The notes: generated by a model not told the origin, from the sequence alone. Shown: positions 5,667 to 64,000, counted from the first letter of the stretch. The stretch: 64,000 nt of DNA from an uncultured Dehalococcoidia bacterium (GCA_964409595.1 CAYPDR010000022.1:20399-84398), one strand, 5' to 3'. A program made the numbers and translations.

Positions 5667-5699
5667 GAGTACATTGCGCACTATAGTTATTATGTTAAG

Positions 5700-6701: not shown

Positions 6702-6861
6702 GGTTCTACCACCTATGAGTAACTGAAATGTTTGAAGTAAATATACCACTTCAAACATTTCAAAGGGCTTTTCACGCTTCCTTATTATTTTTTCTGAAAT
6801 ATACTGATACTATCGTTGGTACAATTTCTAAAAAAATAGGAGGAGTCAAATTCTATATAAA

Positions 6862-16832: not shown

Positions 16833-16880
16833 TGTGTTCATTTTATGAACAATGATTCATGTGTTCACTTCTTGAACACA
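16833..16880. promoter_or_regulatory. two tandem inverted repeats (candidate operator pair) in the divergent promoter region
   Basis: IR1 is TGTTCA-TTTTA-TGAACA (16835-16851). IR2 is TGTGTTCA-CTTCT-TGAACACA (16860-16880). Both are preceded by the same ATGTGTTCA 9-mer, 27 bp apart. A TTGACT hexamer at 16825-16830 lies just upstream. Confidence 0.4.
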
Positions 16881-16913
16881 GAATTTTCGCCCATTGTCCT
16901 TCGGGGAATGTAT

Positions 16914-49039: not shown

Positions 49040-50830
49040 ATGAAAGAATTCATTCGATTTATGAGATTCCTGTACGAATCAATCGGTTGGAAACTCTACG
49101 CGTGGGTTATATTCATAGCTGTTGCTGCCCTATTAGATGGCTTAAGCGTGGGGTTTTTCTTTCCCATATTAGAGGCCGACCAGGGAGCGAGTGAACTTAC
49201 AAAGTTTCTGAACGGCATCCTTGGTCGGCTCGGCCTTACATACAGTATCGTATTGGCGGTTGTATTCGTGTTGATCTTGTTTCTTCTCAGGACTTTTTTC
49301 CTCATTGTTCAGGAGTTATTTGCCAGTAGATTAATGACCAGAGTCTTGGCAAAAAGTAAAAGAGAGGTAATAGAAAAGATATTTGCAGCCGAGTATCTCT
49401 ATTTTGCATCAAGAGAGCTAGGCTACTTTAACAACGCGGTTACTATCGAATATAACAATGTTACTTTTGCATTTAGATGCTGCATGCGATTGCTCGTGAA
49501 TGGAGGATTTGCTATTGTCTACTTTTCCCTACCGCTGTTTGTAAATTTTCAAGCTACGATTGTGGTTCTTGCTCTGGGAATTCCATTACACATAGCTCTC
49601 CGCCGCGCTAATGTGCTAACACGGCGTTACTCCTTTAGGTTTACTGATATCAATTCTCGTGTCCAATCAATGCTGATACAACTATTGACCAATTTCAGGT
49701 ATTTAAAATCAACAAACACGTCAAAAACGTTAGTGAGGAAGGTATCTTCGGACATTAACGAGCAGTCAGACATAATGTTCAAGCAATCGATAGTTAACGC
49801 CTCAGTTGGTAAATCAACTGAACTTTTCACAATATTGCTGGCGGCGTTGATAATTCTCTATAACGAACTGGTAGTTGGAGATCCTTTAATTCAAATAGTG
49901 TTTTTGCTTTTTGTTATCAGGAGAGCGGTAAACTATGCCCTCGCGAGCTACACAGACTATCGGGAATTTGTTGGGTCGTCGGGAAGCATCGCTGTGTTTA
50001 AAAAGCTCGAGAAAGAGCTTGCTGATAATCAGGAGCCGGTAGCTAACTCTTCTACCAGATTGCCTGAGTTTACTGAAACTATATCGCTGCGAGACATTCA
50101 CGTGTCGTATGATGGTAAGACTGACGTGTTATCCGGTGTAAATATAGAGATTTCCCCTCTGAAGACGGTTGCGATCGTAGGTGAGTCAGGAGCTGGTAAA
50201 AGTACTATAGCTGGGCTCCTTACAGGTGTAATTAAGCCTAAACAAGGAAGTCTGTTCATAGGTGACTGTCCGTATGTAGATATGGATTTGTCGACCTTAC
50301 GGGAGTCGATAGGATATGTGACACAAGAGAACGTTATATTTACCGATACGTTAAGGAACAATATAACTCTTTGGGACGAGACTGGAGGCACAAAAAATGA
50401 CGAAGGATCGGAAACCTTTTTGAGGTCAGTCATCAACAAATCCAGCCTGACCGAATTTGTTGATAGTCTTCCTGAAGGTTTAGATACTCAATTGGGGGAC
50501 AACGGGTTGAATTTGTCTGGTGGGCAAAGGCAAAGAGTATGCATCGCGAGGGAATTGTACAAAAAGATAAATCTCCTGATTCTAGATGAAGCTACAAGTG
50601 CATTAGATTCTATTTCGGAGAGAGAAATACAAAATAGTATTGAAGCGATGTCTGGCGGCCTGACAATCGCAGTTATTGCTCACAGACTGTCGACTATCAA
50701 GAATGCTGATCTTATTGTGGTTCTACATAACGGGAAAGTAGCGGAATCAGGCACTTTTGAAGAACTTTATGCGCTAGAAGGTAGATTTCGTAAAACGGTT
50801 GATTACCAAGAAATATCGGTAACTTATTGA
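49040..50830 (+). CDS. ABC exporter, fused permease/ATPase (MsbA/PglK-like; candidate lipid-linked glycan flippase)
   Basis: A six-TM N-domain, then Walker A GESGAGKST, signature LSGGQRQR, Walker B LLILDEATSALD and H-loop AHRL. Confidence 0.88.
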   Translation: MKEFIRFMRFLYESIGWKLYAWVIFIAVAALLDGLSVGFFFPILEADQGASELTKFLNGILGRLGLTYSIVLAVVFVLILFLLRTFFLIVQELFASRLMTRVLAKSKREVIEKIFAAEYLYFASRELGYFNNAVTIEYNNVTFAFRCCMRLLVNGGFAIVYFSLPLFVNFQATIVVLALGIPLHIALRRANVLTRRYSFRFTDINSRVQSMLIQLLTNFRYLKSTNTSKTLVRKVSSDINEQSDIMFKQSIVNASVGKSTELFTILLAALIILYNELVVGDPLIQIVFLLFVIRRAVNYALASYTDYREFVGSSGSIAVFKKLEKELADNQEPVANSSTRLPEFTETISLRDIHVSYDGKTDVLSGVNIEISPLKTVAIVGESGAGKSTIAGLLTGVIKPKQGSLFIGDCPYVDMDLSTLRESIGYVTQENVIFTDTLRNNITLWDETGGTKNDEGSETFLRSVINKSSLTEFVDSLPEGLDTQLGDNGLNLSGGQRQRVCIARELYKKINLLILDEATSALDSISEREIQNSIEAMSGGLTIAVIAHRLSTIKNADLIVVLHNGKVAESGTFEELYALEGRFRKTVDYQEISVTY

Positions 50831-50851: not shown

Positions 50852-51964
50852 ATGATAAAAAAACTTTTCATATTGTCGGATGGTAATAGCGGTAACACGG
50901 GTCCCTTTGAAGGACCTTTCCATCAATTCCGTAATTTTCTGAAAGACAGTTCAATATCTGTCTCATTTAAAAGTTATGGAGATAATCTTGAAGAAGGCGA
51001 CTGCTATTTAGTGAATAGTAAATTCTTCAGAAAAAAATATCCATTATGGGATGATAAGGCTGTAACTCATATAAGAGAGTTCCTCGATTTATTGCACCGG
51101 TTTACCAATAACGTCGTTTGGTTCGATACATCCGATAGTTGTTCGAGCAATCAATTCGCAATTATCGATAACGTAAATATGTTTTGCAAAAATCAGATCT
51201 ATGTTGAAAAAGAGATGTATCTCAAAAATTTTTATGGTGGACGGATTTATACGGACTTCTACCACAGGAGATACGGAGTCTGCGATGAACAAATTAGCTT
51301 CAACCATAATGAGTGTATGCCCAAAGAAAATGATCTAGATAAGATCGTCGTCTCGTGGAATTCATCCTTTGGTGAGTACGGTTTTGGGATTATAAACAGG
51401 CTCAATAGACGTTTGAATAATAGGTACCCGCAAGCATCTAAATTTTTCTTGAAACTTGGCGATCCGAAGTCTAGAAGGCGAAACACTGTAAGTTGTCGGA
51501 TAGGTGTGAATCATTTGAGAAACACTGTTCGGTTTCAACGCGAGCGTCTCACAGATATTCTGGCCTCTTCTTGGGAAGTTTCGACAAACAGGATCAATAA
51601 AAAACAATATTTTCGTGAGTTACTTAACTCACAGGTGTGTATTTCTCCTTTTGGATGGGGCGAAATTGCATATAGAGACTTTGAGATCTTTATATCGGGG
51701 GCCGCCCTTCTAAAACCTTCCATGAGTCATATGAAAACTTGGCCTGACATCTATGTTGAGGGAGAAACCTTTGTTTCATATTCCTGGGATTTGAGTGATA
51801 TTGATGAGAAGTTACACTATCTGGGTGAATCAACGACTTCTACCGAAATTGCTCAATGGGGGCAAGAAACGTATCTAGACTCTGTTCGTGGTCGGGACGC
51901 AGCTGATCTGTTTTGTAAGCGTTTATTGTCGATAGTGACAGGGGACCGAAGTACCCTACAGTAA
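50852..51964 (+). CDS. hypothetical protein, possibly a divergent glycosyltransferase
   Basis: 370 aa embedded among GT genes. Only a weak exostosin/GT-B-like C-terminal pattern is visible (CISPFGWGEIAYRDFEIFISGAALL). Confidence 0.45.
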   Translation: MIKKLFILSDGNSGNTGPFEGPFHQFRNFLKDSSISVSFKSYGDNLEEGDCYLVNSKFFRKKYPLWDDKAVTHIREFLDLLHRFTNNVVWFDTSDSCSSNQFAIIDNVNMFCKNQIYVEKEMYLKNFYGGRIYTDFYHRRYGVCDEQISFNHNECMPKENDLDKIVVSWNSSFGEYGFGIINRLNRRLNNRYPQASKFFLKLGDPKSRRRNTVSCRIGVNHLRNTVRFQRERLTDILASSWEVSTNRINKKQYFRELLNSQVCISPFGWGEIAYRDFEIFISGAALLKPSMSHMKTWPDIYVEGETFVSYSWDLSDIDEKLHYLGESTTSTEIAQWGQETYLDSVRGRDAADLFCKRLLSIVTGDRSTLQ

Positions 51965-51993: not shown

Positions 51994-53175
51994 TTGAAAA
52001 TAGTTGTGTTTATCATGGGATCTTTGTTTAAGGTTGGCGGATACCAAGTGTTCACATACAACTTACTGGATCACCTGACTAAAAACGGTCACGAAACATA
52101 CCTTGTAGTACCAGAATATGAGCTAAATGAAAATCGGTCAAAGTATAAGCTTCTGCCGTATGAAGTTTTAGGTATCAAGTGGTCGAAGGGCAAGTCGGTT
52201 AGGTACTTCCCTGCCCTAACACGTCACGGGATAAGGAAGATTCAAGATCGCTTAAATGCTGATATCTGGCAGGTCGTAGGGGCCTTTCCTGCAGGCTACT
52301 TGGCCTTAACTTTGTCTGGTCGAGTTCCAATTGTTCTTCGGAGCCATGGAGAAGATGTTCAAATCGATCGATCGATCGGATATGGTCTACGATTGGATTC
52401 TAACGTCGGTCAGAGAGTTGAAAAAACTTTGTGCGGAGTTAACTCAGTAGTCGCTCTAACAAAAACCATGGCAGCTTCATACGTAGACATGGGTGTAAAT
52501 GTTGCAGATATAGAGGTGATAGCAAACGGGGTAGACTGTCAGAGATTTTTTGTTCCGAGTCAAAAAGGCGAGGTCAATTTAGGAAGTAATCATACTAATG
52601 ACACGTCTCAATCGATACGGTTATTAACCGTAGGTAGATACCATCGTAAAAAGGGATTTAACTTGATACCACAAATTGCCAATCTGCTGAAGCGAGCTCA
52701 GTTGGATTTCCATTGGAGCGTGGTGGGTTCTGGTAATGACGTGTTAAAGGACGAAATAAGCAGGCGTGAATTGAACAGCAAAGTCAAGGTTTTTGATGAG
52801 ATAGGCATCTCAGTCGATGGTAAATTTCCCAGCGATGAATTGGTCGAAATTTACAAAGCTTCTGACATTTTTGTTTTTCCGTCATTGTTGGAGGGATTTC
52901 CCAGAGTGATCGTGGAGGCAATGTCGGCCTCCCTCGCTGTTGTAACGACAGACGCGGAGGGTTGCATAGATGTAATAACAGATATGGAAACCGGACTTAT
53001 AACGCCTAAACATGATGTCGTTTCAATGGCTAATGCAATAGGTTTGCTAATAAAGGATTCAACTCTCCGTCATAAAATGGCAACTTGCGGAAGGGAGGAA
53101 TCCCTGAAATATGATTGGGCAAAAGTTGTCAACGAGTATGAATCTATTTACAAAAATTTGCTCCTAGAAGGTTGA
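51994..53175 (+). CDS. glycosyltransferase family 4
   Basis: LEGFPRVIVEAMSASLAVVTTD plus N-terminal MKIVVF...GG. TTG start. Confidence 0.85.
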   Translation: MKIVVFIMGSLFKVGGYQVFTYNLLDHLTKNGHETYLVVPEYELNENRSKYKLLPYEVLGIKWSKGKSVRYFPALTRHGIRKIQDRLNADIWQVVGAFPAGYLALTLSGRVPIVLRSHGEDVQIDRSIGYGLRLDSNVGQRVEKTLCGVNSVVALTKTMAASYVDMGVNVADIEVIANGVDCQRFFVPSQKGEVNLGSNHTNDTSQSIRLLTVGRYHRKKGFNLIPQIANLLKRAQLDFHWSVVGSGNDVLKDEISRRELNSKVKVFDEIGISVDGKFPSDELVEIYKASDIFVFPSLLEGFPRVIVEAMSASLAVVTTDAEGCIDVITDMETGLITPKHDVVSMANAIGLLIKDSTLRHKMATCGREESLKYDWAKVVNEYESIYKNLLLEG

Positions 53176-53348
53176 TCCCTAGCGGACCGGGCTTTTACAA
53201 AAATACTTTATAGTCACGTCAATAGTTTTATATGACTATTATTAAGTCGAAGGATAGAGTTGAAGGGCAAGTAATGGTAGGTGTATAGGAGGTTGTTTCA
53301 CCTCACGATCAGTAGGCTGCCACTTCTAGAAAGGATGATGGCAAATTT

Positions 53349-54473
53349 ATGAATCAATTTTCCATGTCACTAATTTCCTTATCTAATCACGAATATTTTT
53401 CCGAAGGTTTTGTCGATTTTACTGGAGGATCTGAGAGACAGATGAGGTACCTTGCCGATGTGTTGCTTGAAGAGGGGTTTAAGCTCAGGTTTGTTACTGC
53501 TAATTTGAGTGAAAATGATCCGACTTACGAGAAAAATTTGTTTCGAGTTAGTCTTTGGTCCAAAGGAGATAACTATTTTATAAGGATGATGAGGATGTTT
53601 CGGTTAGTCCTATCAAGTAGAGAACCAATTTACATGAGGGGCGTGTCTACTGTTCATATGATGATAATTGTAGCCGCCAAATTTTGCGGAAGAACCGGCA
53701 TAGTCAACATGACATCAGATCTACATTGCACCAAGGGCGGCTCAGCCCGCTCTTATATTATGAGATGGCTGCTATTTAACTTAAGTGGGACGGTCATCGC
53801 CCAATCAAGTGAACAACAGCAGCTAATTCAAAGGAACTTTGGTGTTTCTAGCAAAGTTCTACCAAATTTCATAAACCCGGACCGATTCACGGCAATAAAA
53901 GGCGGCCATAAATTTGAAAGTCGCTGCATAGACGTAGTATGGATTGGGACAGTAGAGCCTAGGAAGGGACTTGAACGACTAAAAGCTATAGCTATAGCCC
54001 TACCAGAACTTAAATTCGTGGTGATTGGAAAACCTGACGACTTGCATCTAGAGTATGGGGAAACACTCCTTGATGAGATGGGTAAATTACCAAATGTGAA
54101 TGTGATGGGATATGTTCAACCGAATCGTATAGGTGATATTCTTGCAACGTCTAAAATCTTGATTAACACGTCCCAAAAGGTTGAATCGGGTGTTACCAAA
54201 GAGGGGTTTCCTAATGTGTTCCTCGAAGCATGGGAGTTCGGCTCTCTAGTTCTTTCCATGGGAATAGACCCAGATGCCCTTGTTTCTGCGGCAGGCCTCG
54301 GTACCTTATGTAATACGCAGGAGGAAGCTGTAGAGTTAATATCCCAGTATGCAAATAATCGGAATATTTGGAAATTTAAATCTAATAAAGCTTTGGAATT
54401 CATTTCAACCCGGGATGTGACCTCTGCCACGGTCAGAAAAGAGATTGTTAGAATTTTAAATGTGTCCGGTTAG
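53349..54473 (+). CDS. glycosyltransferase (GT-B, family 4-like)
   Basis: GGSERQMRYLADVL and KEGFPNVFLEAWEFGSLVLS. Confidence 0.75.
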   Translation: MNQFSMSLISLSNHEYFSEGFVDFTGGSERQMRYLADVLLEEGFKLRFVTANLSENDPTYEKNLFRVSLWSKGDNYFIRMMRMFRLVLSSREPIYMRGVSTVHMMIIVAAKFCGRTGIVNMTSDLHCTKGGSARSYIMRWLLFNLSGTVIAQSSEQQQLIQRNFGVSSKVLPNFINPDRFTAIKGGHKFESRCIDVVWIGTVEPRKGLERLKAIAIALPELKFVVIGKPDDLHLEYGETLLDEMGKLPNVNVMGYVQPNRIGDILATSKILINTSQKVESGVTKEGFPNVFLEAWEFGSLVLSMGIDPDALVSAAGLGTLCNTQEEAVELISQYANNRNIWKFKSNKALEFISTRDVTSATVRKEIVRILNVSG

Positions 54474-54551: not shown

Positions 54552-55712
54552 TTGCAGTGTTTGAAAGAGAGTCAAGTGACTAAGACCTTAATACTTCAGC
54601 GCACCTTTGAACATTACCGGGTTCCAGTGTTTGAAGAATTTTCGCAGAGGGCATGTGTCGACCTAGTGGTTGCTATTCCATTCCAAGGACGGGATGCCTC
54701 ACCGTTTTCTAACGTAGAATTGAACTATTCTGTGGCCGATTTAGACGTGAGTTCCTATCGGATCCCATTTGTTCAAGAATTGTTTTTTTATAGGAATTGG
54801 GAATCACTTGTGAGTCTTGTGCACCCTGATGTAATCGTTGCCGAGGGCAACGCAAGAATTTGGAGCCTCGGAAAGCTTTTGAGCTATTCAAAATGTAAGA
54901 ATATCCGAACGGTAGCTTGGACTAAATACGACAATTTGGTGTCGTGGCCTAAATCATTGGTTTGGAACAATTTCTTAAAAAAATGGGACCATGTAGTATG
55001 TTACGGACAACAATCGTTAAATGGAGTGAAAAAATTAGGTATACCCCCATGTCGTATCAACATAGCGCAGAACGCCGTTCCTATTCCGGAAACGGAAACG
55101 GAATTAAATGATTTGAAGGTCCGTTCGAAGGCTATTTCGTTGAATAAGCTGTCTAATGGGATTCCTGTAGTGGTTTCACTTGGTACCTTGGTAAAGAAGA
55201 AAAGGTTTGATCTTGTTATTGATGCGGCAGCCGATCTCATGCGGGAAGGTAATGACTTTCAGTTAGTAATCGTAGGAGATGGTCCGGAATTTGATAATTT
55301 GTCGAAGCAGGCAGACAAAATTCTTCGGTACTGCGGTATACCTGCTAAGAGAATTTTATTTGTTGGACATGTTAAGGAAGGTGAAGACGCCGTTTGGATG
55401 ACTCGTGCGGACGTATCCGTTATGGGTGGGGCTGTCGGGTTGGCGTTGAATGTAAGTATGTCTTGCGGAACCCCGACGCTAATTCCAGATGAGATTGGAA
55501 GCGACGCTGAATTACTACAAGATACCGTAAACGGGATCCGGTTTATTCCTGGTAATCGTCGAGATTTGAGTAACAAACTTAAGAGTTTACTTGAATCAGA
55601 GAAACTTAGAAGAGGATTAGGAATTAAAGCCAGGGAAACCATTATTCAAAAGGCCACCGTAGGTAAAATGGTTGATGGTCTACAAGAAGCAGTTTTGGGA
55701 GGCGCAACATAG
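54552..55712 (+). CDS. glycosyltransferase (GT-B, family 1/4-like)
   Basis: LVIVGDGPE and GGAVGLALNVSMSCGTPTLI. TTG start. Confidence 0.7.
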   Translation: MQCLKESQVTKTLILQRTFEHYRVPVFEEFSQRACVDLVVAIPFQGRDASPFSNVELNYSVADLDVSSYRIPFVQELFFYRNWESLVSLVHPDVIVAEGNARIWSLGKLLSYSKCKNIRTVAWTKYDNLVSWPKSLVWNNFLKKWDHVVCYGQQSLNGVKKLGIPPCRINIAQNAVPIPETETELNDLKVRSKAISLNKLSNGIPVVVSLGTLVKKKRFDLVIDAAADLMREGNDFQLVIVGDGPEFDNLSKQADKILRYCGIPAKRILFVGHVKEGEDAVWMTRADVSVMGGAVGLALNVSMSCGTPTLIPDEIGSDAELLQDTVNGIRFIPGNRRDLSNKLKSLLESEKLRRGLGIKARETIIQKATVGKMVDGLQEAVLGGAT

Positions 55713-55719: not shown

Positions 55720-57027
55720 ATGAAAATTTTGGTTTATGGGCTTGGCTACGTAGGGGCCGTCACATCCGCTATGTTGGCCAAGGAGGGACATACCGTTTTA
55801 GGAGTAGATAATAACCGAGCAAAGGTGGATTTGATAAACAATGGAGAATCTCCGGTAAATGAGCCGTACTTGCGATCAGTTATAAAGGAACAGGTCCTTT
55901 CAGGAAGGTTGACTGCTTCAAACAACACCAAAACAACCGATGACCTAGATGCGGTGTTTATTTGTGTAGGTACTCCAAGTAATGATGACGGCGGCATGGA
56001 TGATTCCCAGGTTCGTAATGTGATCGCGGAAATAACTGATCTTAGGCAGCAAATCAATTCAAATCTAGCCGTTTTTAACAGAAGTACATGTTTACCATCG
56101 ACTCATATGTGGGCTGTTACAAATTTGAAAAAGAGGTTTCTAGGCCAGGTGGAATATTTTGTTCATCCTGAGTTTCTCCGCGAAGGTTCAGCTTTAAGTG
56201 ATTTCAAGTCTCCTCCACTTATTTTGTATGGGTCAGAAGAGGAGGTTAATACCGATTTGGCGGAGATTTCTAAATTGTTGTATCCAGGCGTTACGTCGCC
56301 GGTTCATGTTGTGGGAATTAAAGAAGCTGCGGTTGCTAAATATGCTTCCAATGCTTTTCACGCGGTAAAAGTGACATTTGCCAATGAGATTGGCTCGATC
56401 TCTAAGTCAGTTGGCGCAGATGCGAGATCAATATTAGAAATTCTCTGTTGCGACACAACCTTGAACATTTCTGAAGCTTACCTGAAGCCAGGCATGCCAT
56501 ACGGAGGTAGTTGCCTTCCCAAAGATGTCAGTGCACTTGTTGGTCTTGCCACTGGGCTGGGTACCACAGCCCAAATGTTGGGAACTTTGAACGAATCAAA
56601 TGACAATCAGATCTCGTCAATTTGTGAGCGACTCTTGGCAGAGAAGCCTGAGTCAATAGGCTTCCTGGGCATATCCTTCAAACAGGGGACTGATGATCTC
56701 AGGGGTAGCCCATTTGTAAGAATTGCCCGATGCTTGATCGATAAGGGTGTTAAGGTCAGTATTTATGATAAAGACGTGGATCTTGAACGTTTTACAGGAG
56801 CCAACCTGACTTTTCTGAATTCTCTGATACCAGAATTGAATGAAATCACCTTCTCCCGTGCGTCAGAAGTGATCGATAATTGTGAAATAGTGCTGTTAGC
56901 ACATCGCAATGCGTTGCATGATCTCAAGCTAACTCCACCAAAACCGAATGTAAAAATTTTTGACTTAGTTGGTTTGTCTAATGATGAATTGTCGGGTTTT
57001 GGCGACGTGGAAGGACTCTACTGGTAG
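55720..57027 (+). CDS. GDP-mannose 6-dehydrogenase-like (AlgD family)
   Basis: MKILVYGLGYVGAV...[60 protein letters not shown] and C-terminal EGLYW. It is colinear with P. aeruginosa AlgD as I recall it (AlgD ends EGICW). I prefer ATG 55720 over the overlapping start at 55672. Confidence 0.8.
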   Translation: MKILVYGLGYVGAVTSAMLAKEGHTVLGVDNNRAKVDLINNGESPVNEPYLRSVIKEQVLSGRLTASNNTKTTDDLDAVFICVGTPSNDDGGMDDSQVRNVIAEITDLRQQINSNLAVFNRSTCLPSTHMWAVTNLKKRFLGQVEYFVHPEFLREGSALSDFKSPPLILYGSEEEVNTDLAEISKLLYPGVTSPVHVVGIKEAAVAKYASNAFHAVKVTFANEIGSISKSVGADARSILEILCCDTTLNISEAYLKPGMPYGGSCLPKDVSALVGLATGLGTTAQMLGTLNESNDNQISSICERLLAEKPESIGFLGISFKQGTDDLRGSPFVRIARCLIDKGVKVSIYDKDVDLERFTGANLTFLNSLIPELNEITFSRASEVIDNCEIVLLAHRNALHDLKLTPPKPNVKIFDLVGLSNDELSGFGDVEGLYW

Positions 57028-57062
57028 ACAGAAAACATAGCTCTATACATGCGGTCTTTTTT

Positions 57063-58211
57063 TTGCCAAACGTCAGTGGATACACAGACCGTATCCGGCT
57101 TCTTGAAGAAGTTTCGAAGTTGATAGGAAAAGTCACTCTTTTGGTCGGCGTCGTTGACGCTGCTTTGCCAGTAGGTGAATCTAAGAAGTTCGTTTTAAAC
57201 GAAGTTCGTTTTGTGCGAGGATTTCGACCGCTGAATCTATGGAGAACTGCTCGAGCAGCCTTGGCTGTAAATGATGTGGACATTTTCCACGATACGTCCG
57301 GGAACCTCATACTAGTATTTTTGCTACTATTTCGTAGAAAATTGCGACCTGCATTGATCACTTCATTTTTTGCATTGGAGAAATGGAGGATCGAAAATGT
57401 TTGGAAGAGGAATGGCTACAGCACCATACGGCTTCTTCTGGAGCCATCCACACGAAACATGTATTTCGGAGCCTTTATTCAGCACATTATGGCGCTTGTT
57501 TCCGATCGGATTGTTTTGCAATCAGCAGGACTTTTTGGAAGATTAACTGAGTACATAGGGATCGACGAAAAAAAAATCAGTGCTCTTCCCAACAATGTGG
57601 ACTGCGATTTTTGGCGTGCTAACTCAAGAAAGATTGGGCGGGCAAGATGTTTTCAAATGTTGTATGTCGGAGGTCTAGATCATTCACGGGGTGTGTTTGC
57701 TGTTTTGGAAGCTTTGGGCAAGTTGAAGGAGGAGGCATGGACAGTGAACTTAGTTTTGGTAGTGAAACAAGGTATTGGAGGAGAGGGACCGATAAATGAC
57801 TTTGTAGCCCGAAATAGTTTGGGAAATTGTGTCGAATTTGTCAGCGGACTATCCAGAGGGGAAATGTTAAACACATACAACAATTCTGACGTGCTGGTGT
57901 ATCAAACCATAAATGATGGTTCTCCGAGAGTGGTTTTGGAAGCTCTATCTTGCGGGTTACCTGTTGTTGCTTCACATCATCCCGGTATTAATGTTCTTGA
58001 CCCAGGAGCTCGTTTTATAAAATTTACCGATTACTCTGATGTGGATGCGATAGTCAGAAACGTGAGTGAACTTTTTAGAGATAATGAACTTCGTTCAGAT
58101 TTAAGTGAAGTAGGTCAGGAAGAAGTGAGGGCGAACTTCAGTAGTGAAAGAGTCGCGAAACAATACGCCAATTTTTATCAAAACATGTTATCTGAACAGA
58201 CATGTGGTTAG
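57063..58211 (+). CDS. glycosyltransferase family 4 (N-terminus possibly truncated by a T8 tract)
   Basis: NDGSPRVVLEALSCGLPVVAS. The TTG start is formed by the 3' end of the T8 run at 57057-57064. An ATG at 57049 would be in frame only with nine Ts. Confidence 0.8.
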   Translation: MPNVSGYTDRIRLLEEVSKLIGKVTLLVGVVDAALPVGESKKFVLNEVRFVRGFRPLNLWRTARAALAVNDVDIFHDTSGNLILVFLLLFRRKLRPALITSFFALEKWRIENVWKRNGYSTIRLLLEPSTRNMYFGAFIQHIMALVSDRIVLQSAGLFGRLTEYIGIDEKKISALPNNVDCDFWRANSRKIGRARCFQMLYVGGLDHSRGVFAVLEALGKLKEEAWTVNLVLVVKQGIGGEGPINDFVARNSLGNCVEFVSGLSRGEMLNTYNNSDVLVYQTINDGSPRVVLEALSCGLPVVASHHPGINVLDPGARFIKFTDYSDVDAIVRNVSELFRDNELRSDLSEVGQEEVRANFSSERVAKQYANFYQNMLSEQTCG

Positions 58212-58249
58212 CTATGCTTCAGGAATCGTTCTAGCAGGTAGAGGTTAAT

Positions 58250-60157
58250 ATGTGCGGGATCGCAGGAGTTCTTAGATTCGATGGCAAGATCGCGGAAAGC
58301 CAGACGATTCAAGACATGAATCTTTCTCAACGCCATCGGGGGCCTGATGATGAAGGTGTGTTCGTAAATGGGCAAATTGCCCTTGGTCTTGCCCGCCTTT
58401 CTGTAATGGATACGTCAGAGAATGCGAAACAACCAATATTCAACGCTACGGGCGATGTCGCTGTAGTGTTTAACGGGGAAATCTACAATTTCGCAGAAAT
58501 CAAAAATCTTCTTTATGAGAATGGGCACGCCTTCGTATCAAACGGTGATGCCGAAGTTTTGCCCCATGCTTACGAAGAGTGGGGTATGCCAGGAATGCTT
58601 TCCCGCCTTAAAGGGATGTTTGCATTTGCCTTATGGGATCAGGAACGTGAATCATTGTTTCTCGTTAGGGATAGATTGGGAGTGAAACCATTGTGCTATG
58701 CAGTAAGCTCCGATTCGATGGAATTTGCTTCGGAGCCTCATGCGTTGAGTTGCTACCAACAACTCGTCACCAAACTTGATTTGGATGGGTTAGAAAGCTA
58801 TTTGTCGTTAGGATATACCGACACTCACACTAACTTTGTGAAAGGGGTAATGTCTGTGTCTCCCGCCTGTTATTTGGAAGTTAAAAATGGGGTTGTTAGA
58901 GAGTTTAAGTATTGGTCTCTTCCTGAGGTGGTATTAAATCCACGTAATCCTACCTTTCAGCAATATGTTGACGAAGCGGACGCTTTACTTTTAAATGCTG
59001 TTGAAAGCAGAATGAAAAGTGATGTTCCTTTAGGAGTGTTTCTCAGCGCGGGTATAGACTCCAGTCTAATAGCAGCCTACGCATCTCGAAACAGTAGAGG
59101 ACCGATAAAAACATTCACAGTTGACTTTACAGACTCTCCAAAGACTGAATCAGAGAATGAATCGCATCTAGCATCTCAGGTCGCTAACAGGTACGGCACT
59201 GATCACAAAATCCTACAAGTGGGAGCTGACTCGATAGGTTCTCTTCCTAGACTTGTTCATAATGTTTCAGAACCATTCTCCGACCCCTCGCTACTTTCAA
59301 CATACATGATTTGCAAGGCCGCGAGAGAGGATATTACTGTAGCACTCACGGGGGATGGAGGTGATGAGTCTTTTGCCGGTTATTCAAACGTTAATGTTGC
59401 CCGTTTAGCGGATAGGGTAATGGGATGGTGCCCTAATTACATCAGAAAACCAACTTTTGAGCTATTACTTGAGATTTTCCCAGATAATCCAAGGCTATCC
59501 AAGATTAGAACACTTTTGAAATATGGCACGAATGACATTGGACATATCTACGATAATCCACAACTGTGGAATCGAAAAATTAGAGATAAATTGCTTGCTG
59601 AAACTAGAGATAATTCAGATTTGCGGTTGCCGTTTAAGGGGAAACTAGATCAGTTTGAACAATCGCTGACCAGGAAACTATCTTATGTGGATTTCAACTT
59701 GAGACTTCCTTGCGGGTATCTTAAAAAAGTAGATATAGCTAGTAGTTCGTTATCGATGGAGATAAGATCTCCTTTCCTAGATCACGAATTAGTCGAATAT
59801 ATGTGGAATGTTCCTGATGAGTTGAAGATCTACAAAGGTAGACAGAAAGGCTTTCTTAGGTATTTAGCGAGTAATTACCTACCTGAGGCCATAGTAAGAA
59901 GAAAAAAAACAGGGTTTTCCCCCCCGATCTCTGAATGGCTTAGGACACGGTGGAGGCCAATCCTCATTCAACTTGTAGAAAATGGCTTAGCCAGACGGAA
60001 AGGCTATTTTCGACCAGACATAATCCGGGACCAAGTTGATGATCACCTGAGCCTAAGGCGAGATAATGGGATGAGGCTTTGGCAACTGATTTGTCTAGAA
60101 GTATGGTTCCAAATATTTGTTGACAGGACCTTAAAACCCGATGACTCCCTTTTCTGA
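58250..60157 (+). CDS. asparagine synthase family amidotransferase, copy 3
   Basis: MCGIAGV and PP-loop variant FLSAGIDSSL. Length is 635 aa. Confidence 0.85.
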   Translation: MCGIAGVLRFDGKIAESQTIQDMNLSQRHRGPDDEGVFVNGQIALGLARLSVMDTSENAKQPIFNATGDVAVVFNGEIYNFAEIKNLLYENGHAFVSNGDAEVLPHAYEEWGMPGMLSRLKGMFAFALWDQERESLFLVRDRLGVKPLCYAVSSDSMEFASEPHALSCYQQLVTKLDLDGLESYLSLGYTDTHTNFVKGVMSVSPACYLEVKNGVVREFKYWSLPEVVLNPRNPTFQQYVDEADALLLNAVESRMKSDVPLGVFLSAGIDSSLIAAYASRNSRGPIKTFTVDFTDSPKTESENESHLASQVANRYGTDHKILQVGADSIGSLPRLVHNVSEPFSDPSLLSTYMICKAAREDITVALTGDGGDESFAGYSNVNVARLADRVMGWCPNYIRKPTFELLLEIFPDNPRLSKIRTLLKYGTNDIGHIYDNPQLWNRKIRDKLLAETRDNSDLRLPFKGKLDQFEQSLTRKLSYVDFNLRLPCGYLKKVDIASSSLSMEIRSPFLDHELVEYMWNVPDELKIYKGRQKGFLRYLASNYLPEAIVRRKKTGFSPPISEWLRTRWRPILIQLVENGLARRKGYFRPDIIRDQVDDHLSLRRDNGMRLWQLICLEVWFQIFVDRTLKPDDSLF

Positions 60158-61322
60158 AAACATTAGCAATAAGTTACTTGCCTTTTGTGACGGATACCCA
60201 TCCCGGAAAGACCCCGCAACGAATGTTTTTGTTCACACCCTGATGAAGTCTGTTAGGAAGCACGGTGTCGATGTAAGCGTAATTGCTCCCGCTCCAATAT
60301 TTTCTCTGACAAGGGGAGTAAATTTTTCGACAGGTTCGCGAAAACAAGAGACCCTTGAAGGGATCCCGGTCAACCGACCCAGATATTTATCATATTCCGC
60401 AAAAAAAATTCCATTGATTGGTACCACTCTCGCAATGTCTATTGGAAGTTTGTCATCTTCTGCTCTTCGTGTAGCTGCTAAAGAAGTAGATAGACCATCT
60501 GTCGCATATGGGCATTTTTTGTTTTCCGGTGGTACTTGCGCGATCAAGGTTGCGGAATATTTTTCCATACCATCGGTTGTTTCTCTAGGTGAAAGTAGTT
60601 TTGATGTCTATATGGAACACTTTGGTAGACAGATGATCAAGACACAACTCCATAAATTTGACAAGGTAATAGCGGTTTCCAATGGCTTGAAAGAGAAATG
60701 CGTTGAAGAATTTGGATACCCTACTGATGGTATACGAGTCATCCCTAATGCAGTGGATCCTGACATGTTCTTTCCACGTAGTAGATCAGAAAGTCGTAAA
60801 ATTTTAAGGTTGCCTATGTCTGAAATTATTGGGATTGCAGTAGGTAGTTTCAGTACTCGCAAAGGCTACAAGAAATTTCACAAGGTAGTGGAATCAATAA
60901 AAGGCCTAAACATGATCTATTTAGGGTCAGGACCTGAAAAACCAGCTGGTAAAAACATTCTGTACGTAGGAGAAGTTCAGCATGCGAATGTTCCTTTGTG
61001 GTTAGCAGCAGCTGATTTTTTTGTTCATCCATCTCAAGCAGAAGGTTCATCAAATGCCATATTGGAGGCTTTATCGTGTGGCCTGCCGGTTGTTGTTAAC
61101 GATATCCCACCAAACAGAGAATTGGTTGATGAAAAGAAAGCAATTTTCTTTGATGCCGGATCCTACTCCCAAGTTAAGGAAGCAATCACAGATGTGGTAC
61201 ATAATTCTGAAAAGCGTGGCATTTTGGCAAGGAACTCAAAGAATGAGGCGAGCCAATATACGATCCATCACAGAAGTGAAAATATTATCAACTGGCTAGG
61301 GATAAATAATTACCAGAGATGA
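60141..61322 (+). CDS. glycosyltransferase family 4
   Basis: AEGSSNAILEALSCGLPVVVND. 17-nt overlap with the upstream gene. Confidence 0.85.
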   Translation: MTPFSENISNKLLAFCDGYPSRKDPATNVFVHTLMKSVRKHGVDVSVIAPAPIFSLTRGVNFSTGSRKQETLEGIPVNRPRYLSYSAKKIPLIGTTLAMSIGSLSSSALRVAAKEVDRPSVAYGHFLFSGGTCAIKVAEYFSIPSVVSLGESSFDVYMEHFGRQMIKTQLHKFDKVIAVSNGLKEKCVEEFGYPTDGIRVIPNAVDPDMFFPRSRSESRKILRLPMSEIIGIAVGSFSTRKGYKKFHKVVESIKGLNMIYLGSGPEKPAGKNILYVGEVQHANVPLWLAAADFFVHPSQAEGSSNAILEALSCGLPVVVNDIPPNRELVDEKKAIFFDAGSYSQVKEAITDVVHNSEKRGILARNSKNEASQYTIHHRSENIINWLGINNYQR

Positions 61323-61450
61323 GTTCGTAATCATAGGTGATTTGGCGGTTGCCAAAGGACGCCTATAAGGAGTGAGGTATCCAATTTGCCATTGGATTTT
61401 GAGTTTAAAATTGGGCTAAGGTTTTCCACCCGGACTAAAGGTATTCAAGT

Positions 61451-62611
61451 ATGAATGTTTTGAGTATTCTTCAATACCCGGCTTACAACGGACACGCCAA
61501 TACATGTGTGCCGATCGATAAAATACTTGAGAAGCAAGGGGTTTATTCGACGTCCCTGATTCCTTCTGGTATCCATACATTGATAACCAGTCACAAGAGA
61601 CACAACTGCAATTATAGGGAGGAAGACCTCTCTAGATTGCGCATCACAAAGAATTTTAGAACTCAATCGGAAGTGTTGAAGAATTTTTACGGCACTGTAA
61701 ATCGGATTCGAGTGGCAATAAGGGAACTTAACATAGACGTAGTACTTGTTTGTGGGATGGAAAATCCCCACGGAGCTATCGCTGCACGCCTAGAGGGTAA
61801 AAAAGTTGTGGGACAGGTGTTGGGATTGGGCATACCTTCGTACGTTAGGCGTTTGGTGGCAATATGGACTCGCTATACCTGTGAGGTTGGTATGATGCCA
61901 GGAAAATCTCTTCACCAATATTTTCCTGGCTTTATTCCCAAGTCTAAATGTGTATTCTTTTTTCCCCCGGTGGACTCGGACACCTACACTTTCACTGAAA
62001 AGAGTATCGATTTTGCGGAGTATCATGGGATTGATATTGGGAATCCGGTGATCGGCACTGTAGGGAATATAAATCCTGCAAAAGGTCTTGAGACTTTCAT
62101 AACAGCCGCAGGTTTAATAAAGAAACATTTGCCAAAAGCACAATTCTTGGTCAAGGGCAACGTTTTAGCCAATCAAGAGGGTTATTTCAATCGATTGCTC
62201 GATATGGCTAAAGGACTAGGAATTCAAAGTGGCAAAGATATATTCTTCATAAGAGATTCTGAAAGTGCCGTAAGGGCGGTCTCTATAATGGACGTCTATG
62301 TTCAAGCATCCAAAGGCGAAGGAATCTCAACTGCCCTTCTTGAGGCGATGTCTATGAAAAGGCCGGTGATTGCTACCTCTGTGGGAGCTACAGAGGATGC
62401 TGTGGCGGACCGAAAGAATGGTGTTCTGGTGATGCCGGGAGATGGAGAATCAATCTCAGGTGAAGTGTTAAATATATTGAAAAATGAGCAGTTCGCTTGC
62501 AGTCTTGGAGAACGAGCTCGCAGATTTGTGTTGAGGCATGCATCGATTGAATCTTGTGCAAAAGCCCATCGTGAGGCATTCGAAATGGCATTACAAAAGC
62601 GTAAAAATTAA
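61451..62611 (+). CDS. glycosyltransferase family 4
   Basis: KGEGISTALLEAMSMKRPVIATSVG. Confidence 0.85.
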   Translation: MNVLSILQYPAYNGHANTCVPIDKILEKQGVYSTSLIPSGIHTLITSHKRHNCNYREEDLSRLRITKNFRTQSEVLKNFYGTVNRIRVAIRELNIDVVLVCGMENPHGAIAARLEGKKVVGQVLGLGIPSYVRRLVAIWTRYTCEVGMMPGKSLHQYFPGFIPKSKCVFFFPPVDSDTYTFTEKSIDFAEYHGIDIGNPVIGTVGNINPAKGLETFITAAGLIKKHLPKAQFLVKGNVLANQEGYFNRLLDMAKGLGIQSGKDIFFIRDSESAVRAVSIMDVYVQASKGEGISTALLEAMSMKRPVIATSVGATEDAVADRKNGVLVMPGDGESISGEVLNILKNEQFACSLGERARRFVLRHASIESCAKAHREAFEMALQKRKN

Positions 62612-62622
62612 ATCGGAGAGAT

Positions 62623-63600
62623 ATGGTCAAGAAAATTCTAGTAACTGGTGCAGGTGGATTCATAGGTCATCATCTTGTGTCCTTTTTGAAAGAGAGAGGA
62701 TACTGGGTTCGTGGCGTGGATATTAAACTTCCGGAATATGCTGAATCTTTGGCTGACGAATTTGAGTTGTTGGATCTACGTCGCTGGGACTCTTGTCTCC
62801 AGGCAACTAGAGGTGTTGAAGAGGTCTACAATCTCGCAGCTGACATGGGAGGTATTGGATATATCACCGCGTATTTGGCCGATATTGCTAGGAACAATTC
62901 ATTGATTAACACACATATGCTGGAATCTTCACGCCTTAACGACGTCGCTCGTTTCTTCTATTCGTCGTCTGCATGCATTTACCCGAGTTATCTACAGGAA
63001 GACGCTGACGTAACTCCTCTCAAAGAATCAGACGCTTATCCGGCTGACCCGGAAGAAGGCTATGGATGGGAAAAGTTGTACATGGAGAAAATGTGTCAAT
63101 ACTACTCTCATGACTATGGCTTAGAGACAAGGGTGGCGAGATTTCATAATGTGTATGGACCGTTGGGAACATATGATGGTGGAAAAGAGAAGGCACCGGC
63201 TGCCATATGCAGAAAAATTGCCTTGGCAAAAGACGGAGATGAGCTCGAGATTTGGGGCGATGGTAAGCAAACCAGGTCTTTTATGTATATCGACGATTGC
63301 GTAGAAGGGATTTATAAGATAACTAAATCAGATTACTGTGAACCCTTGAATCTTGGTATGGACGTTATGGTCACCGTGGACGAATTAGTCGACTTGGTTT
63401 TGGAAATAGCCGGTAAATCGCTTTTGAAGCGGCACGACACGAGTAAACCCCAGGGTGTTCGGGGACGAAATAGTGACAATTCAAAATTGGAAGGTCTTTT
63501 GAATTGGTCTCCTGAATATTCCTTGGCTGATGGTCTCTCCATCACTTATGGCTGGATAGAATCGGAACTAAAAAAGACGGAAAAAATTTCTTCTTACTGA
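62623..63600 (+). CDS. GDP-mannose 3,5-epimerase homolog (extended SDR)
   Basis: VTGAGGFIGHHL, NLAADMGGIGYI, FFYSSSACIYP, YGWEKL, RFHNVYGP.GT..GG.EKAPAA.CRK, WGDGKQTRSF and GVRGRNSDN. It is colinear over nearly the full length with plant GME as I recall it. Confidence 0.8.
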   Translation: MVKKILVTGAGGFIGHHLVSFLKERGYWVRGVDIKLPEYAESLADEFELLDLRRWDSCLQATRGVEEVYNLAADMGGIGYITAYLADIARNNSLINTHMLESSRLNDVARFFYSSSACIYPSYLQEDADVTPLKESDAYPADPEEGYGWEKLYMEKMCQYYSHDYGLETRVARFHNVYGPLGTYDGGKEKAPAAICRKIALAKDGDELEIWGDGKQTRSFMYIDDCVEGIYKITKSDYCEPLNLGMDVMVTVDELVDLVLEIAGKSLLKRHDTSKPQGVRGRNSDNSKLEGLLNWSPEYSLADGLSITYGWIESELKKTEKISSY

Positions 63601-63609
63601 TCCTAACTT

Positions 63610-64000
63610 ATGGGTAGACGGATTCTGGTAATCAATCAGTATTTCTCGCCAGATGTTGCGTCGTCTGGACAAATTCTCAAAGAATTATGTGCTGGCTTGG
63701 TTGGAAATGGTCACCGAGTCTCCGTCGTGGCGGCGCAACCGAGCTATGAGAGTTCCGAAGTCAATGCACCGCGATTCGAAAACGTCGACGGAATTGATGT
63801 ATACAGAATAAATATGTCTGGCACGCGAGGTAGAAGCAACCTAGCGTTACGTTGCATTGGTTACATTAGGTTTTTGTTGGTGAGTTGGTGGTTGGCGAGA
63901 AAATTAATGTCGCAAACCGGGTTTGATTTGGTCATAACCCTATCGAATCCTCCCTTTGCTGCCGTAGTGGGAGCATTGACGGCAAGAAGGTGGGACATTC
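63610..64000 (+). CDS. glycosyltransferase family 4 (WcaI-like N-terminus), truncated by the window end
   Basis: My own translation from ATG 63610 reads MGRRILVINQYFSPDVASSGQILKELCAGLVGNGHRVSVVAAQPSY..., with no stop before nt 64000. It is absent from the ORF track because it has no stop codon. Confidence 0.75.
   Translation, partial: MGRRILVINQYFSPDVASSGQILKELCAGLVGNGHRVSVVAAQPSYESSEVNAPRFENVDGIDVYRINMSGTRGRSNLALRCIGYIRFLLVSWWLARKLMSQTGFDLVITLSNPPFAAVVGALTARRWDI

What the first reader, a model, noticed from the sequence alone, without database searches (positions are those of the whole stretch)
55720..63600. GDP-mannose 6-dehydrogenase (AlgD-like) together with a GDP-mannose 3,5-epimerase homolog: possible nucleotide-level route to L-configured hexoses or hexuronates
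The ORF at 55720-57027 is colinear with AlgD down to the C-terminal EG..W. The ORF at 62623-63600 is colinear with plant-type GDP-mannose 3,5-epimerase (NLAADMGGIGYI, RFHNVYGP, EKAPAAICRK, GVRGRNSDN). GME homologs are best known from the plant ascorbate pathway, and few prokaryotic ones have been characterised. Finding one in the same glycosyltransferase block as an AlgD-like enzyme and an AsnB-like enzyme suggests two possibilities. The block may produce GDP-L-galactose or GDP-L-gulose. More speculatively, it may epimerise GDP-mannuronate at C5 or C3,5 (to L-guluronate or L-galacturonate) at the nucleotide level, rather than at the polymer level as in alginate.
Basis: partly seen in the sequence, partly recalled or inferred. 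Interest (0 to 1): 0.6.

Follow-up and report, generated by a model that had tools for sequence, protein, structure and literature searches.

The report
GDP-mannose dehydrogenase and epimerase genes
A marine SAR202-type bacterium carries, at the end of a giant cell-surface sugar gene cluster, an ordinary-looking GDP-mannose 6-dehydrogenase and GDP-mannose 3,5-epimerase. They most likely supply two different sugars (mannuronic acid and L-galactose or L-gulose) in parallel, not a new L-uronic acid pathway.

Summary
Both ORFs are real and correctly identified. ORF 55720-57027 is closest to P. aeruginosa AlgD (E 1.8e-90; best UDP-glucose dehydrogenase 1.5e-50). It keeps the catalytic residues and three of the four strongly conserved GDP-mannose-dehydrogenase marker residues. 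ORF 62623-63600 is a canonical GDP-mannose 3,5-epimerase (E 1e-106 to plant GME structures, 50% identity). All eight named functional residues are present.

The two genes lie in a conserved SAR202 module of glycosyltransferases, an ABC exporter and sometimes an AsnB-like amidotransferase.

Serial action on GDP-mannuronate is not supported, for four reasons:
- The epimerase has no specialised residues.
- Close relatives (74% identity) keep the epimerase and its downstream glycosyltransferase with no dehydrogenase within 10 kb.
- None of 79 canonical AlgD-type loci has an epimerase nearby.
- Bacterial GME homologues are widespread, and one is already characterised.

Best reading: two parallel GDP-mannose branches feed a complex acidic surface glycan. 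This is a new member of known kinds and of modest interest.

Side lead: a different, uncharacterised sugar-nucleotide dehydrogenase subfamily sits next to GME in Acidobacteriota and proteobacterial bins.

The parts
55720..57027 (+). GDP-mannose 6-dehydrogenase-like enzyme (AlgD-like), 435 aa
   Evidence: Best PDB hit is AlgD 1mfz, E 1.8e-90, full-length. Passes TIGR03026. 38% identical to PaAlgD. Equivalents of T124, E157, E161, K210, N214, C268, K271 and D272 are kept. Markers R122, L126 and H217 are kept; A263 is Pro. In an NJ tree it is sister to the canonical AlgD clade.
62623..63600 (+). GDP-mannose 3,5-epimerase (GM35E/GME), 325 aa
   Evidence: E about 1e-106 to GME structures 8sg0 and 2c59. 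50% identical to AtGME. S116, C118, Y147, K151, N176, K190, R218 and R282 correspond to At S143, C145, Y174, K178, N203, K217, R243 and R306.
63610..64000 (+). 5' part of a GT4 glycosyltransferase (406 aa in the full contig) that always follows GME. It is the candidate L-galactosyl or L-gulosyl transferase.
   Evidence: The full gene is at L086 17936-19156. It follows GME in every SAR202 locus examined: 50-54% identity by tblastn in L001-L005 and L174, and a same-sized GT4 gene by Pfam call in L088. It also follows GME in the dehydrogenase-less loci L172/L173 (41-44%). Weaker homologues follow GME in L006, L073, L041, L031 and L062.
61451..62611 (+). GT4 glycosyltransferase immediately upstream of GME
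   Evidence: Pfam Glycos_transf_1. Conserved in the same position in SAR202 relatives.
60141..61322 (+). GT4 glycosyltransferase, TuaC-like. Part of the accessory AsnB+GT insert.
   Evidence: Pfam GT4 and Glycos_transf_1. TuaC model scores 123 bits, below its cut-off. Present with AsnB in the window and in L088/L089. Absent from L002-L005 and L174.
58250..60157 (+). AsnB-like glutamine-dependent amidotransferase, 635 aa
   Evidence: Pfam GATase_6/7 plus Asn_synthase. TIGR01536 scores 423.7 (cut-off 267.1). The EPS-associated model TIGR03108 scores 498.6, below its cut-off of 816.9. The N-terminal MCGIAG nucleophile and an SAGIDS PP-loop are visible in the translation.
57063..58211 (+). GT4 glycosyltransferase immediately downstream of the dehydrogenase
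   Evidence: Pfam Glycos_transf_1. Conserved next to the dehydrogenase in L174 (39% identity) and in other SAR202 loci.
54552..55712 (+). GT4 glycosyltransferase immediately upstream of the dehydrogenase
   Evidence: Pfam Glycos_transf_1. 46% identical homologue upstream of the dehydrogenase in L174.
51994..54473 (+). Two further GT4 glycosyltransferases (51994-53175 and 53349-54473)
   Evidence: Pfam. Conserved in SAR202 loci.
50852..51964 (+). Conserved 370-aa protein of unknown family next to the ABC exporter
   Evidence: No Pfam or NCBIfam hit. A same-sized gene without Pfam hits sits in the same position in L088/L089.
49040..50830 (+). Fused TMD-NBD ABC exporter (596 aa), the likely flippase or exporter of the lipid-linked glycan
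   Evidence: ABC_membrane plus ABC_tran on the identical gene in L086. Conserved at the head of the module in SAR202 loci.
47765..48979 (+). GT4 glycosyltransferase at the head of the module
   Evidence: Pfam Glycos_transf_1. Conserved in L088.

Best explanation
The 47.8-64 kb stretch is the distal, conserved module of a roughly 50 kb, almost entirely + strand, surface-glycan locus of a marine SAR202-type Chloroflexota bacterium.

Two enzymes draw independently on the cellular GDP-D-mannose pool.
- The AlgD-like enzyme oxidises C6 in two NAD+-dependent steps through a Cys thio-hemiacetal/thioester, giving GDP-D-mannuronate.
- The GME transiently oxidises C4 with bound NAD+. It then uses the Cys118/Lys190 pair to invert C5 and C3, giving GDP-L-galactose with GDP-L-gulose as a side product.

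Each donor is used by its own neighbouring GT4 transferases. The GT4 at 63610 onward is the best candidate for L-Gal/L-Gul. The GT4s flanking the dehydrogenase are the candidates for ManA. Together they extend a lipid-linked oligosaccharide.

Where present, the AsnB-like enzyme converts a uronate carboxylate to the amide. The fused ABC transporter exports the product.

Shown: family membership and intact catalytic sets of both enzymes, conserved synteny, and independence of the GME-GT pair from the dehydrogenase in relatives.

Inferred: the actual substrates and products, which GT uses which donor, the amidation target, and the export route.
For: - Dehydrogenase: AlgD is by far the best solved relative, and the alignment runs through the C-terminal nucleotide-binding domain. 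The catalytic residues are conserved. So are the GDP-mannose-dehydrogenase markers Arg122, Leu126 and His217; His217 contacts the mannose 2''-OH (PMC4794789; mapping).
- GME: 360 bits to GME structures against 104 bits to GDP-fucose synthase. All eight residues listed for GM35E are conserved. The enzyme matches consensus at 114 of 116 highly conserved columns. Its identity to AtGME (50%) equals that of the biochemically confirmed bacterial MfGM35E (50.5%, PMC6678494).
- Synteny: GT-ABC-unknown-GT-(MT)-GT-GT-DH-GT-(AsnB-GT)-GT-GME-GT is conserved across SAR202 lineages whose dehydrogenases are only 43-59% identical.
- Independence: L172 and L173 keep GME plus the downstream GT4 but have no dehydrogenase within 10 kb. 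None of 79 canonical AlgD-type loci has a GME.
- Amidation precedent: WbpS-type amidotransferases are proposed to make uronamide sugars (PMC6025236).
Against: - No biochemical data exist for any SAR202 enzyme.
- No GDP-mannose pyrophosphorylase or phosphomannomutase is encoded in the window, so the substrate supply is assumed.
- The SAR202 dehydrogenase clade is divergent (38% identity to PaAlgD). It replaces the family marker Ala263 with Pro in every member examined, so a shifted substrate is possible.
- In the SAR202 clade the dehydrogenase was in the same module as a GME in each of the four locus groups examined (window/L086, L088-L089, L002-L005 with L090, and L174). This is compatible with coupling as well as with shared ancestry.
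- The donor-to-GT assignments rest only on adjacency.
Confidence: 0.7

Rival explanations
1. Serial pathway, dehydrogenase first. GDP-mannose is oxidised to GDP-mannuronate, and the GME homologue then epimerises it at C5 or at C3 and C5. The product is GDP-L-guluronate or GDP-L-galacturonate.
For: The two genes are in one conserved module in every SAR202 locus that has this dehydrogenase clade. The canonical AlgD clade, which is not linked to GME, differs from the SAR202 clade at the Ala263 marker.
Against: The GME shows no specialisation. There is no discriminating column and no added basic residue to bind a carboxylate, and it matches consensus at 114 of 116 conserved columns. A 74% identical GME with the same downstream GT4 operates with no dehydrogenase nearby. 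From general knowledge of SDR chemistry, a 4-keto-hexuronate intermediate is a beta-keto acid prone to decarboxylation, as exploited by UDP-xylose synthase. An unmodified GME active site would therefore be a poor fit. No paper in the searched library mentions GDP-guluronic acid together with GDP-mannuronic acid.
Confidence: 0.07
2. Serial pathway, epimerase first. GME makes GDP-L-galactose or GDP-L-gulose. The divergent AlgD-like enzyme of the SAR202 clade then oxidises that sugar at C6 to GDP-L-galacturonate or GDP-L-guluronate.
For: The SAR202 dehydrogenase clade is a separate sister branch of canonical AlgD and has a clade-specific FA-to-(M/L)P change next to the catalytic GGSC motif. L-Gal and L-Gul keep the C2 configuration of mannose, so retention of His217 does not exclude them. 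A second, unrelated dehydrogenase subfamily is recurrently adjacent to GME in other phyla, which shows that GME-dehydrogenase pairing is not unique to SAR202.
Against: The Arg122, Leu126 and His217 markers and the whole catalytic set are those of GDP-mannose dehydrogenases. Inverting C5 repositions the CH2OH group that must reach the catalytic Cys; this point is inference. Two to four GT genes separate the two enzymes, instead of the direct adjacency seen in the other phyla. GME works without a dehydrogenase in L172/L173.
Confidence: 0.08
3. The epimerase homologue is not a 3,5-epimerase in vivo. It would act instead as a single C5 or C3 epimerase, a 4-epimerase or a reductase on another NDP-sugar.
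For: Single-site epimerases within this family have been postulated but not found (PMC8787198). The product ratio cannot be read from sequence.
Against: All residues that distinguish GM35E from GalE and from GDP-fucose synthase are present: the Cys/Lys pair rather than Cys/His, and Arg306 rather than Lys. The score gap to GDP-fucose synthase is about 255 bits.
Confidence: 0.08

Closest known systems
GDP-mannose 3,5-epimerase (GM35E/GME): Arabidopsis thaliana enzyme (PDB 2C54, 2C59) and the characterised bacterial MfGM35E of Methylacidiphilum fumariolicum
   Same: Extended SDR with a GxxGxxG motif. It has the Ser/Tyr/Lys triad, the Cys/Lys acid-base pair, and the Arg306, Asn203 and Arg243 equivalents. 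It is 50% identical to AtGME, the same distance as MfGM35E.
   Different: It lacks the plant N- and C-terminal extensions (325 aa against 377). It sits in a glycan assembly operon instead of an ascorbate pathway. Activity is untested.
GDP-mannose 6-dehydrogenase AlgD of Pseudomonas aeruginosa (PDB 1MV8, 1MFZ)
   Same: Colinear over the full length at 38% identity. It has the catalytic Cys and the general acid/base residues, plus markers Arg122, Leu126 and His217.
   Different: It belongs to a separate SAR202 sister clade. Ala263 is replaced by Pro and Cys213 by Ser. The context is GT4 genes and an ABC exporter. None of the ORFs of at least 150 aa scanned against Pfam in the window matched an alginate polymerase, AlgG-type epimerase or export family.
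WbpS / WbtH-type AsnB-like amidotransferases of O-antigen and N-glycan loci
   Same: A glutamine amidotransferase domain plus an Asn_synthase domain, encoded beside a sugar-nucleotide 6-dehydrogenase in a glycan locus. WbpS is proposed to form GalNAcAN (PMC6025236).
   Different: The sequence relation to WbpS was not tested here. The neighbouring acid would be GDP-linked ManA and not UDP-linked GalNAcA. The gene is an accessory insert absent from some SAR202 versions of the module.
ABC-transporter-dependent lipid-linked glycan pathways (PglK/Wzk-type flippases)
   Same: A single fused TMD-NBD ABC protein lies among cytoplasmic GT4 enzymes. A Bac_transf initiating transferase and a Wzy_C-domain ligase-like protein sit elsewhere in the locus.
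   Different: No sequence comparison with PglK or Wzk was made, so the resemblance is architectural only.

Membership tests
GDP-mannose 3,5-epimerase (GM35E) | Extended-SDR fold with an N-terminal glycine motif and a [ST]xnYx3K triad | tested here: met
   TGAGGFIG at residues 8-15. S116, Y147 and K151 align to At S143, Y174 and K178. Pfam Epimerase E 1.9e-47.
GDP-mannose 3,5-epimerase (GM35E) | Cys/Lys acid-base pair (At C145/K217), which distinguishes it from GalE (none) and from GDP-fucose synthase (Cys/His) | tested here: met
   C118 and K190 are invariant in alignment A1 and present in 83 of 86 rows of the wider alignment.
GDP-mannose 3,5-epimerase (GM35E) | Arg that acidifies the catalytic Cys (At R306), the diphosphate-binding Arg (R243) and the conserved Asn (N203) | tested here: met
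   R282, R218 and N176.
GDP-mannose 3,5-epimerase (GM35E) | Closer to characterised GM35E than to any other SDR specificity | tested here: met
   360 bits to 8sg0 and 2c59 against 104 bits to GDP-fucose synthase.
GDP-mannose 3,5-epimerase (GM35E) | [quoted passage not shown] | not testable with these tools
   Requires an enzyme assay.
GDP-mannose 6-dehydrogenase (GDPMDH, AlgD type) | NDP-sugar dehydrogenase three-domain architecture with the catalytic Cys (Pa C268) and the conserved Thr/Glu/Lys/Asn/Asp set | tested here: met
   Three Pfam domains. Equivalents of T124, E157, E161, K210, N214, C268, K271 and D272 are all present.
GDP-mannose 6-dehydrogenase (GDPMDH, AlgD type) | Group-specific residues His217 (contacts the mannose 2''-OH), Arg122 and Leu126 | tested here: met
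   H214, R121 and L125. These residues are conserved in 72-79 of 79 canonical metagenome members.
GDP-mannose 6-dehydrogenase (GDPMDH, AlgD type) | Group-specific Ala263 (Gly in other NDP-sugar dehydrogenases) | tested here: not met
   Pro in the window and in all SAR202-clade members examined. Ala in 79 of 79 canonical members. The published contact is through the main-chain carbonyl, so the consequence is unclear. For this reason I file the enzyme as AlgD-like, in a sister clade, and not as a proven GDPMDH.
GDP-mannose 6-dehydrogenase (GDPMDH, AlgD type) | Groups with AlgD and not with UDP-glucose or UDP-ManNAc dehydrogenases | tested here: met
   307 bits to AlgD against 176 bits to the best UGDH. 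In the NJ tree the SAR202 clade is sister to the canonical AlgD clade (a distance tree without bootstrap).
GDP-mannose 6-dehydrogenase (GDPMDH, AlgD type) | Oxidises GDP-D-mannose to GDP-D-mannuronate | not testable with these tools
   Requires an enzyme assay.
Alginate biosynthesis system | Alg8/Alg44 polymerase, AlgG or AlgE polymer-level C5-epimerase, and AlgK/AlgE export genes alongside AlgD | tested here: not met
   None of the ORFs of at least 150 aa scanned against Pfam in the window matched such a family. The module contains GT4 enzymes and an ABC exporter instead.
Asparagine synthase-like (AsnB) glutamine amidotransferases | N-terminal Cys nucleophile GATase domain plus an Asn_synthase (PP-loop) domain | tested here: met
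   Pfam GATase_6/7 and Asn_synthase. TIGR01536 scores 423.7, above its cut-off of 267.1. MCGIAG and SAGIDS motifs are in the translation.
XrtA/PEP-CTERM system amidotransferase (TIGR03108) | Score above the curated cut-off | tested here: not met
   498.6 bits against a cut-off of 816.9.

The most novel reading that the evidence does not exclude
In SAR202 the AlgD-like dehydrogenase and the GME act in series, in either order, and make a GDP-linked L-hexuronate (GDP-L-guluronate or GDP-L-galacturonate). This would be a nucleotide-level route to L-uronic acids. Its parallel would be the uncharacterised dehydrogenase subfamily that sits directly next to GME in Acidobacteriota and proteobacterial MAGs.
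Probability: 0.12. Interest if true: 0.7.

Novelty: new member of a known kind. Interest (0 to 1): 0.3.

Why it matters
SAR202 bacteria are abundant in the deep ocean and their cell envelope chemistry is essentially unknown. This locus predicts a surface glycan that contains mannuronic acid (possibly amidated), L-galactose or L-gulose, and two nonulosonic acids. That prediction can be tested on the few cultured strains.

The enzymes themselves are expected members of known families, so the finding does not change what is known about either family.

The practical value is modest:
- another bacterial GME for making L-sugars;
- a conserved GME plus GT4 pair that nominates a bacterial L-galactosyl or L-gulosyl transferase;
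- a clear negative result on the proposed GDP-mannuronate epimerisation.

Tried and rejected
- I looked for residues that distinguish GMEs with a dehydrogenase neighbour from those without. The best column was a variable position, 57% against 7%, so I rejected it as a signal.
- I first counted five non-SAR202 GME loci as having an 'AlgD-type' neighbour, based on tblastn scores. The tree, the marker residues and a PDB search showed these belong to a different subfamily. I withdrew the count.
- The promoter and terminator scan of 47-64 kb found fewer sites than shuffled sequence gives. It is uninformative.
- Literature searches found nothing directly relevant on three topics: SAR202 with GDP-mannose, GDP-mannuronic with GDP-guluronic acid, and AsnB-type uronate amidation. 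Two searches failed because the comma in the enzyme name cannot be handled.
- The alginate reading was rejected. There are no polymerase, polymer-level epimerase or export genes.
- Lenient Pfam searches of the unknown 370-aa protein beside the ABC exporter gave nothing.
- I did not run structure prediction, fold search or the representative-protein search. Sequence matches to solved structures were already unambiguous.


Full report
**Observation.** The region holds a run of + strand ORFs with short gaps.

ORF 55720-57027 (435 aa):
- It has the three domains of the UDP-glucose/GDP-mannose dehydrogenase family and passes the TIGR03026 nucleotide-sugar dehydrogenase model.
- Among solved structures it is closest by a wide margin to P. 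aeruginosa AlgD: 1mfz, E 1.8e-90, 307 bits, aligned over residues 1-422. The best UDP-glucose dehydrogenase scores 176 bits and aligns only to residue 352.

ORF 62623-63600 (325 aa):
- It matches plant GDP-mannose 3,5-epimerase structures at E about 1e-106 (360 bits). The next family, GDP-fucose synthase, scores 104 bits.

**The epimerase.** The GM35E review lists the functional residues of the Arabidopsis enzyme: S143, Y174, K178, C145, K217, R306, R243 and N203 (PMC8787198).
- In my alignment these are S116, Y147, K151, C118, K190, R282, R218 and N176 of the window protein. All are conserved.
- Identity to AtGME is 50%. [quoted passage not shown]
- A scan of one genome per species found at least 552 GME-encoding stretches. 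The 80 best were 60-72% identical and came from Acidobacteriota, Chloroflexota, Bacteroidota, Actinomycetota, Gemmatimonadota, Proteobacteria and others.
- The window enzyme equals the consensus at 114 of the 116 columns that are at least 90% conserved in those enzymes. The two exceptions are A102S and a Thr that is also found in Arabidopsis.

It is therefore a canonical GM35E. Bacterial homologues are common, although only one has been characterised.

**The dehydrogenase.** A published family analysis gives His217, Leu126, Ala263, Arg122 and (weakly) Cys213 as residues specific to GDP-mannose dehydrogenases. His217 contacts the mannose 2''-OH (PMC4794789).
- The window protein keeps Arg, Leu and His, and has Ser at the variable Cys213 position.
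- It replaces Ala263 with Pro. Every SAR202-clade relative does the same, whereas 79 of 79 canonical relatives have Ala.
- All catalytic residues are present.
- In a neighbour-joining tree the SAR202 enzymes form a sister clade to the canonical AlgD-type clade.

I therefore call it AlgD-like, with GDP-mannose as the most probable substrate, but not a proven orthologue.

**Context.**
- The closest homologues of both proteins are from marine metagenomes. Those with source names are labelled SAR202 cluster, Dehalococcoidia or Chloroflexota.
- The identical dehydrogenase lies on a 104,848-bp metagenome scaffold. There the cluster ends with one more GT4 after GME, followed by unrelated genes.
- The whole window from about 11.7 kb onward is one glycan locus. 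It contains a PMT_2-type GT-C, a Bac_transf initiating transferase, a Wzy_C protein, a NusG paralogue and two other NDP-sugar dehydrogenases. It also has two NeuB-type synthases with cytidylyltransferases, three AsnB-like genes, aminotransferases, acyltransferases, an ABC exporter and about nine GT4 genes.
- The distal module has the order GT, ABC, unknown 370-aa protein, GT, (methyltransferase), GT, GT, DH, GT, (AsnB, GT), GT, GME, GT. It recurs in SAR202 lineages whose dehydrogenases are only 43-59% identical to the window's.
- AsnB and the TuaC-like GT form an accessory two-gene insert. They are present in the window and in L088/L089, and absent from L002-L005 and L174.

**Are the two enzymes coupled?** Four tests.
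1. No alignment column separates GMEs that have a dehydrogenase neighbour from those that do not. No extra basic residue appears.
2. Chloroflexota loci L172 and L173 carry a GME 74% identical to the window's, followed by a GT4 41-44% identical to the window's last GT. They have no NDP-sugar dehydrogenase within 10 kb on either side. The conserved unit is therefore GME plus its downstream GT4.
3. Of 80 metagenome loci retrieved with the dehydrogenase alignment, 79 are canonical AlgD-type, and 51 of the 80 have at least 5 kb of flank in total. None of the 79 has a GME. The single locus that does is SAR202-like.
4. From general SDR chemistry (my own knowledge, not tested here), a 4-keto-uronate intermediate would be prone to decarboxylation. 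An unmodified GME site is thus an unlikely GDP-mannuronate epimerase.

Together these favour two parallel branches from GDP-mannose. Serial action in SAR202 cannot be excluded, because there the two genes always travel together and the dehydrogenase clade is divergent. I give the two serial orders a combined probability of about 0.12-0.15.

**An error corrected on the way.**
- tblastn first suggested that five GME loci from other phyla (L011, L014, L058, L079, L085) had an 'AlgD-type' neighbour.
- The tree and the residue table show that these dehydrogenases form their own clade. They are 40-52% identical to one another and about 30% to AlgD.
- They lack Arg122, His217 and Ala263. They have GLGKLG, PEFIALG and GGPCFPRDN in place of the family motifs.
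- The one member searched (L058) is equidistant from UDP-glucose dehydrogenase and AlgD structures, at 218 and 212 bits.
- In Acidobacteriota the order GME, (methyltransferase), dehydrogenase recurs in further loci.
- This uncharacterised subfamily is a separate lead. It lies outside the window and does not include the window's enzyme.

**Mechanism proposed.**
- GDP-mannose, made elsewhere in the genome, is oxidised to GDP-mannuronate by the AlgD-like enzyme.
- The flanking GT4 enzymes add these sugars to a lipid-linked oligosaccharide started by the Bac_transf enzyme.
- The AsnB-like enzyme, by analogy with WbpS (PMC6025236), amidates a uronate.
- The fused ABC protein exports the glycan.

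Only the family assignments, residue conservation and synteny are shown. Everything else is inferred.

**Comparison and novelty.** Both enzymes are new members of known families. The module is not an alginate system. Finding a GME in a bacterial glycan cluster is expected.

**Verdict.** Novelty is 'new member of a known kind' and interest is about 0.3.

Noticed in passing
L058 11866-13266, L079 8371-9744, L014 10928-12075, L011 12019-13524, L085 about 5350-6369, L170 6001-7377: A distinct, apparently uncharacterised NDP-sugar dehydrogenase subfamily lies next to, or one gene away from, GME in most of these loci; in L085 it is about 3.6 kb away. The loci are from Acidobacteriota and from deltaproteobacterial, alphaproteobacterial and other proteobacterial MAGs, often in the order GME-methyltransferase-dehydrogenase. 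Its motifs are GLGKLG, PEFIALG and GGPCFPRDN. It lacks the GDP-mannose-dehydrogenase markers, and the conserved Glu161 is Leu. The one member searched (L058) is equidistant from UGDH and AlgD structures. It could act on a GME product.
   Followed up: partly
window 62623-64000; L172 10001-12227; L173 10001-12242: GME and the GT4 immediately downstream form a two-gene unit. The unit is kept in a different Chloroflexota glycan cluster (heptose/6-deoxy-sugar enzymes, carbamoyltransferase, Wzy_C proteins) that has no dehydrogenase. Weaker homologues of this GT4 follow GME in several other phyla. It is a candidate bacterial L-galactosyl or L-gulosyl transferase.
   Followed up: partly
window 55720-57027 (residue 260): All SAR202-clade AlgD-like enzymes have Pro where 79 of 79 canonical AlgD-type enzymes have Ala263. 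The motif is PG(M/L)P(Y/F)GGSC instead of PGFA(F/Y)GGSC, just before the catalytic Cys.
   Followed up: partly
window 28518-29528 and 44464-45492 (NeuB); 22033-22695 and 41856-43928 (cytidylyltransferases): One locus holds two NeuB-type nonulosonic acid synthases and two CMP-transferase genes. One of the latter is fused to a class-III aminotransferase (690 aa). This suggests two different sialic-acid-like sugars in one glycan.
   Followed up: no
window 29758-31590, 38248-40065, 58250-60157: There are three AsnB-like amidotransferase paralogues in the same locus. The first two sit among the nonulosonic-acid and amino-sugar genes, and the third near the AlgD-like gene.
   Followed up: no
window 16845-18109: A winged-helix HTH protein and a NusG paralogue (199 aa) sit at the head of the long + strand gene run. 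This may be a locus-specific antiterminator of the RfaH/LoaP kind.
   Followed up: no
window 14661-16682 (- strand) and 11723-13033: A 673-aa Wzy_C-domain protein (O-antigen ligase or O-oligosaccharyltransferase-like) is the only large minus-strand gene in the locus. A PMT_2-type GT-C lies nearby. Both are candidates for transferring the finished glycan to its acceptor.
   Followed up: no
window 50852-51964: A 370-aa protein with no Pfam or NCBIfam match, even at E=1. A gene of the same size sits next to the ABC exporter in SAR202 relatives (L088 4589-5701).
   Followed up: partly
window 34280-35740: A 486-aa protein whose only hit is a weak partial match to Capsule_synth (KpsC/KpsS-like, E 2.5e-5). 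It may be a retaining beta-Kdo-type or other unusual transferase.
   Followed up: no
window 5700-6758 (- strand): A 352-aa protein with only a weak hit (E 0.0023) to the Ig-like domain of archaellum protein FlaF. It lies outside the glycan locus.
   Followed up: no
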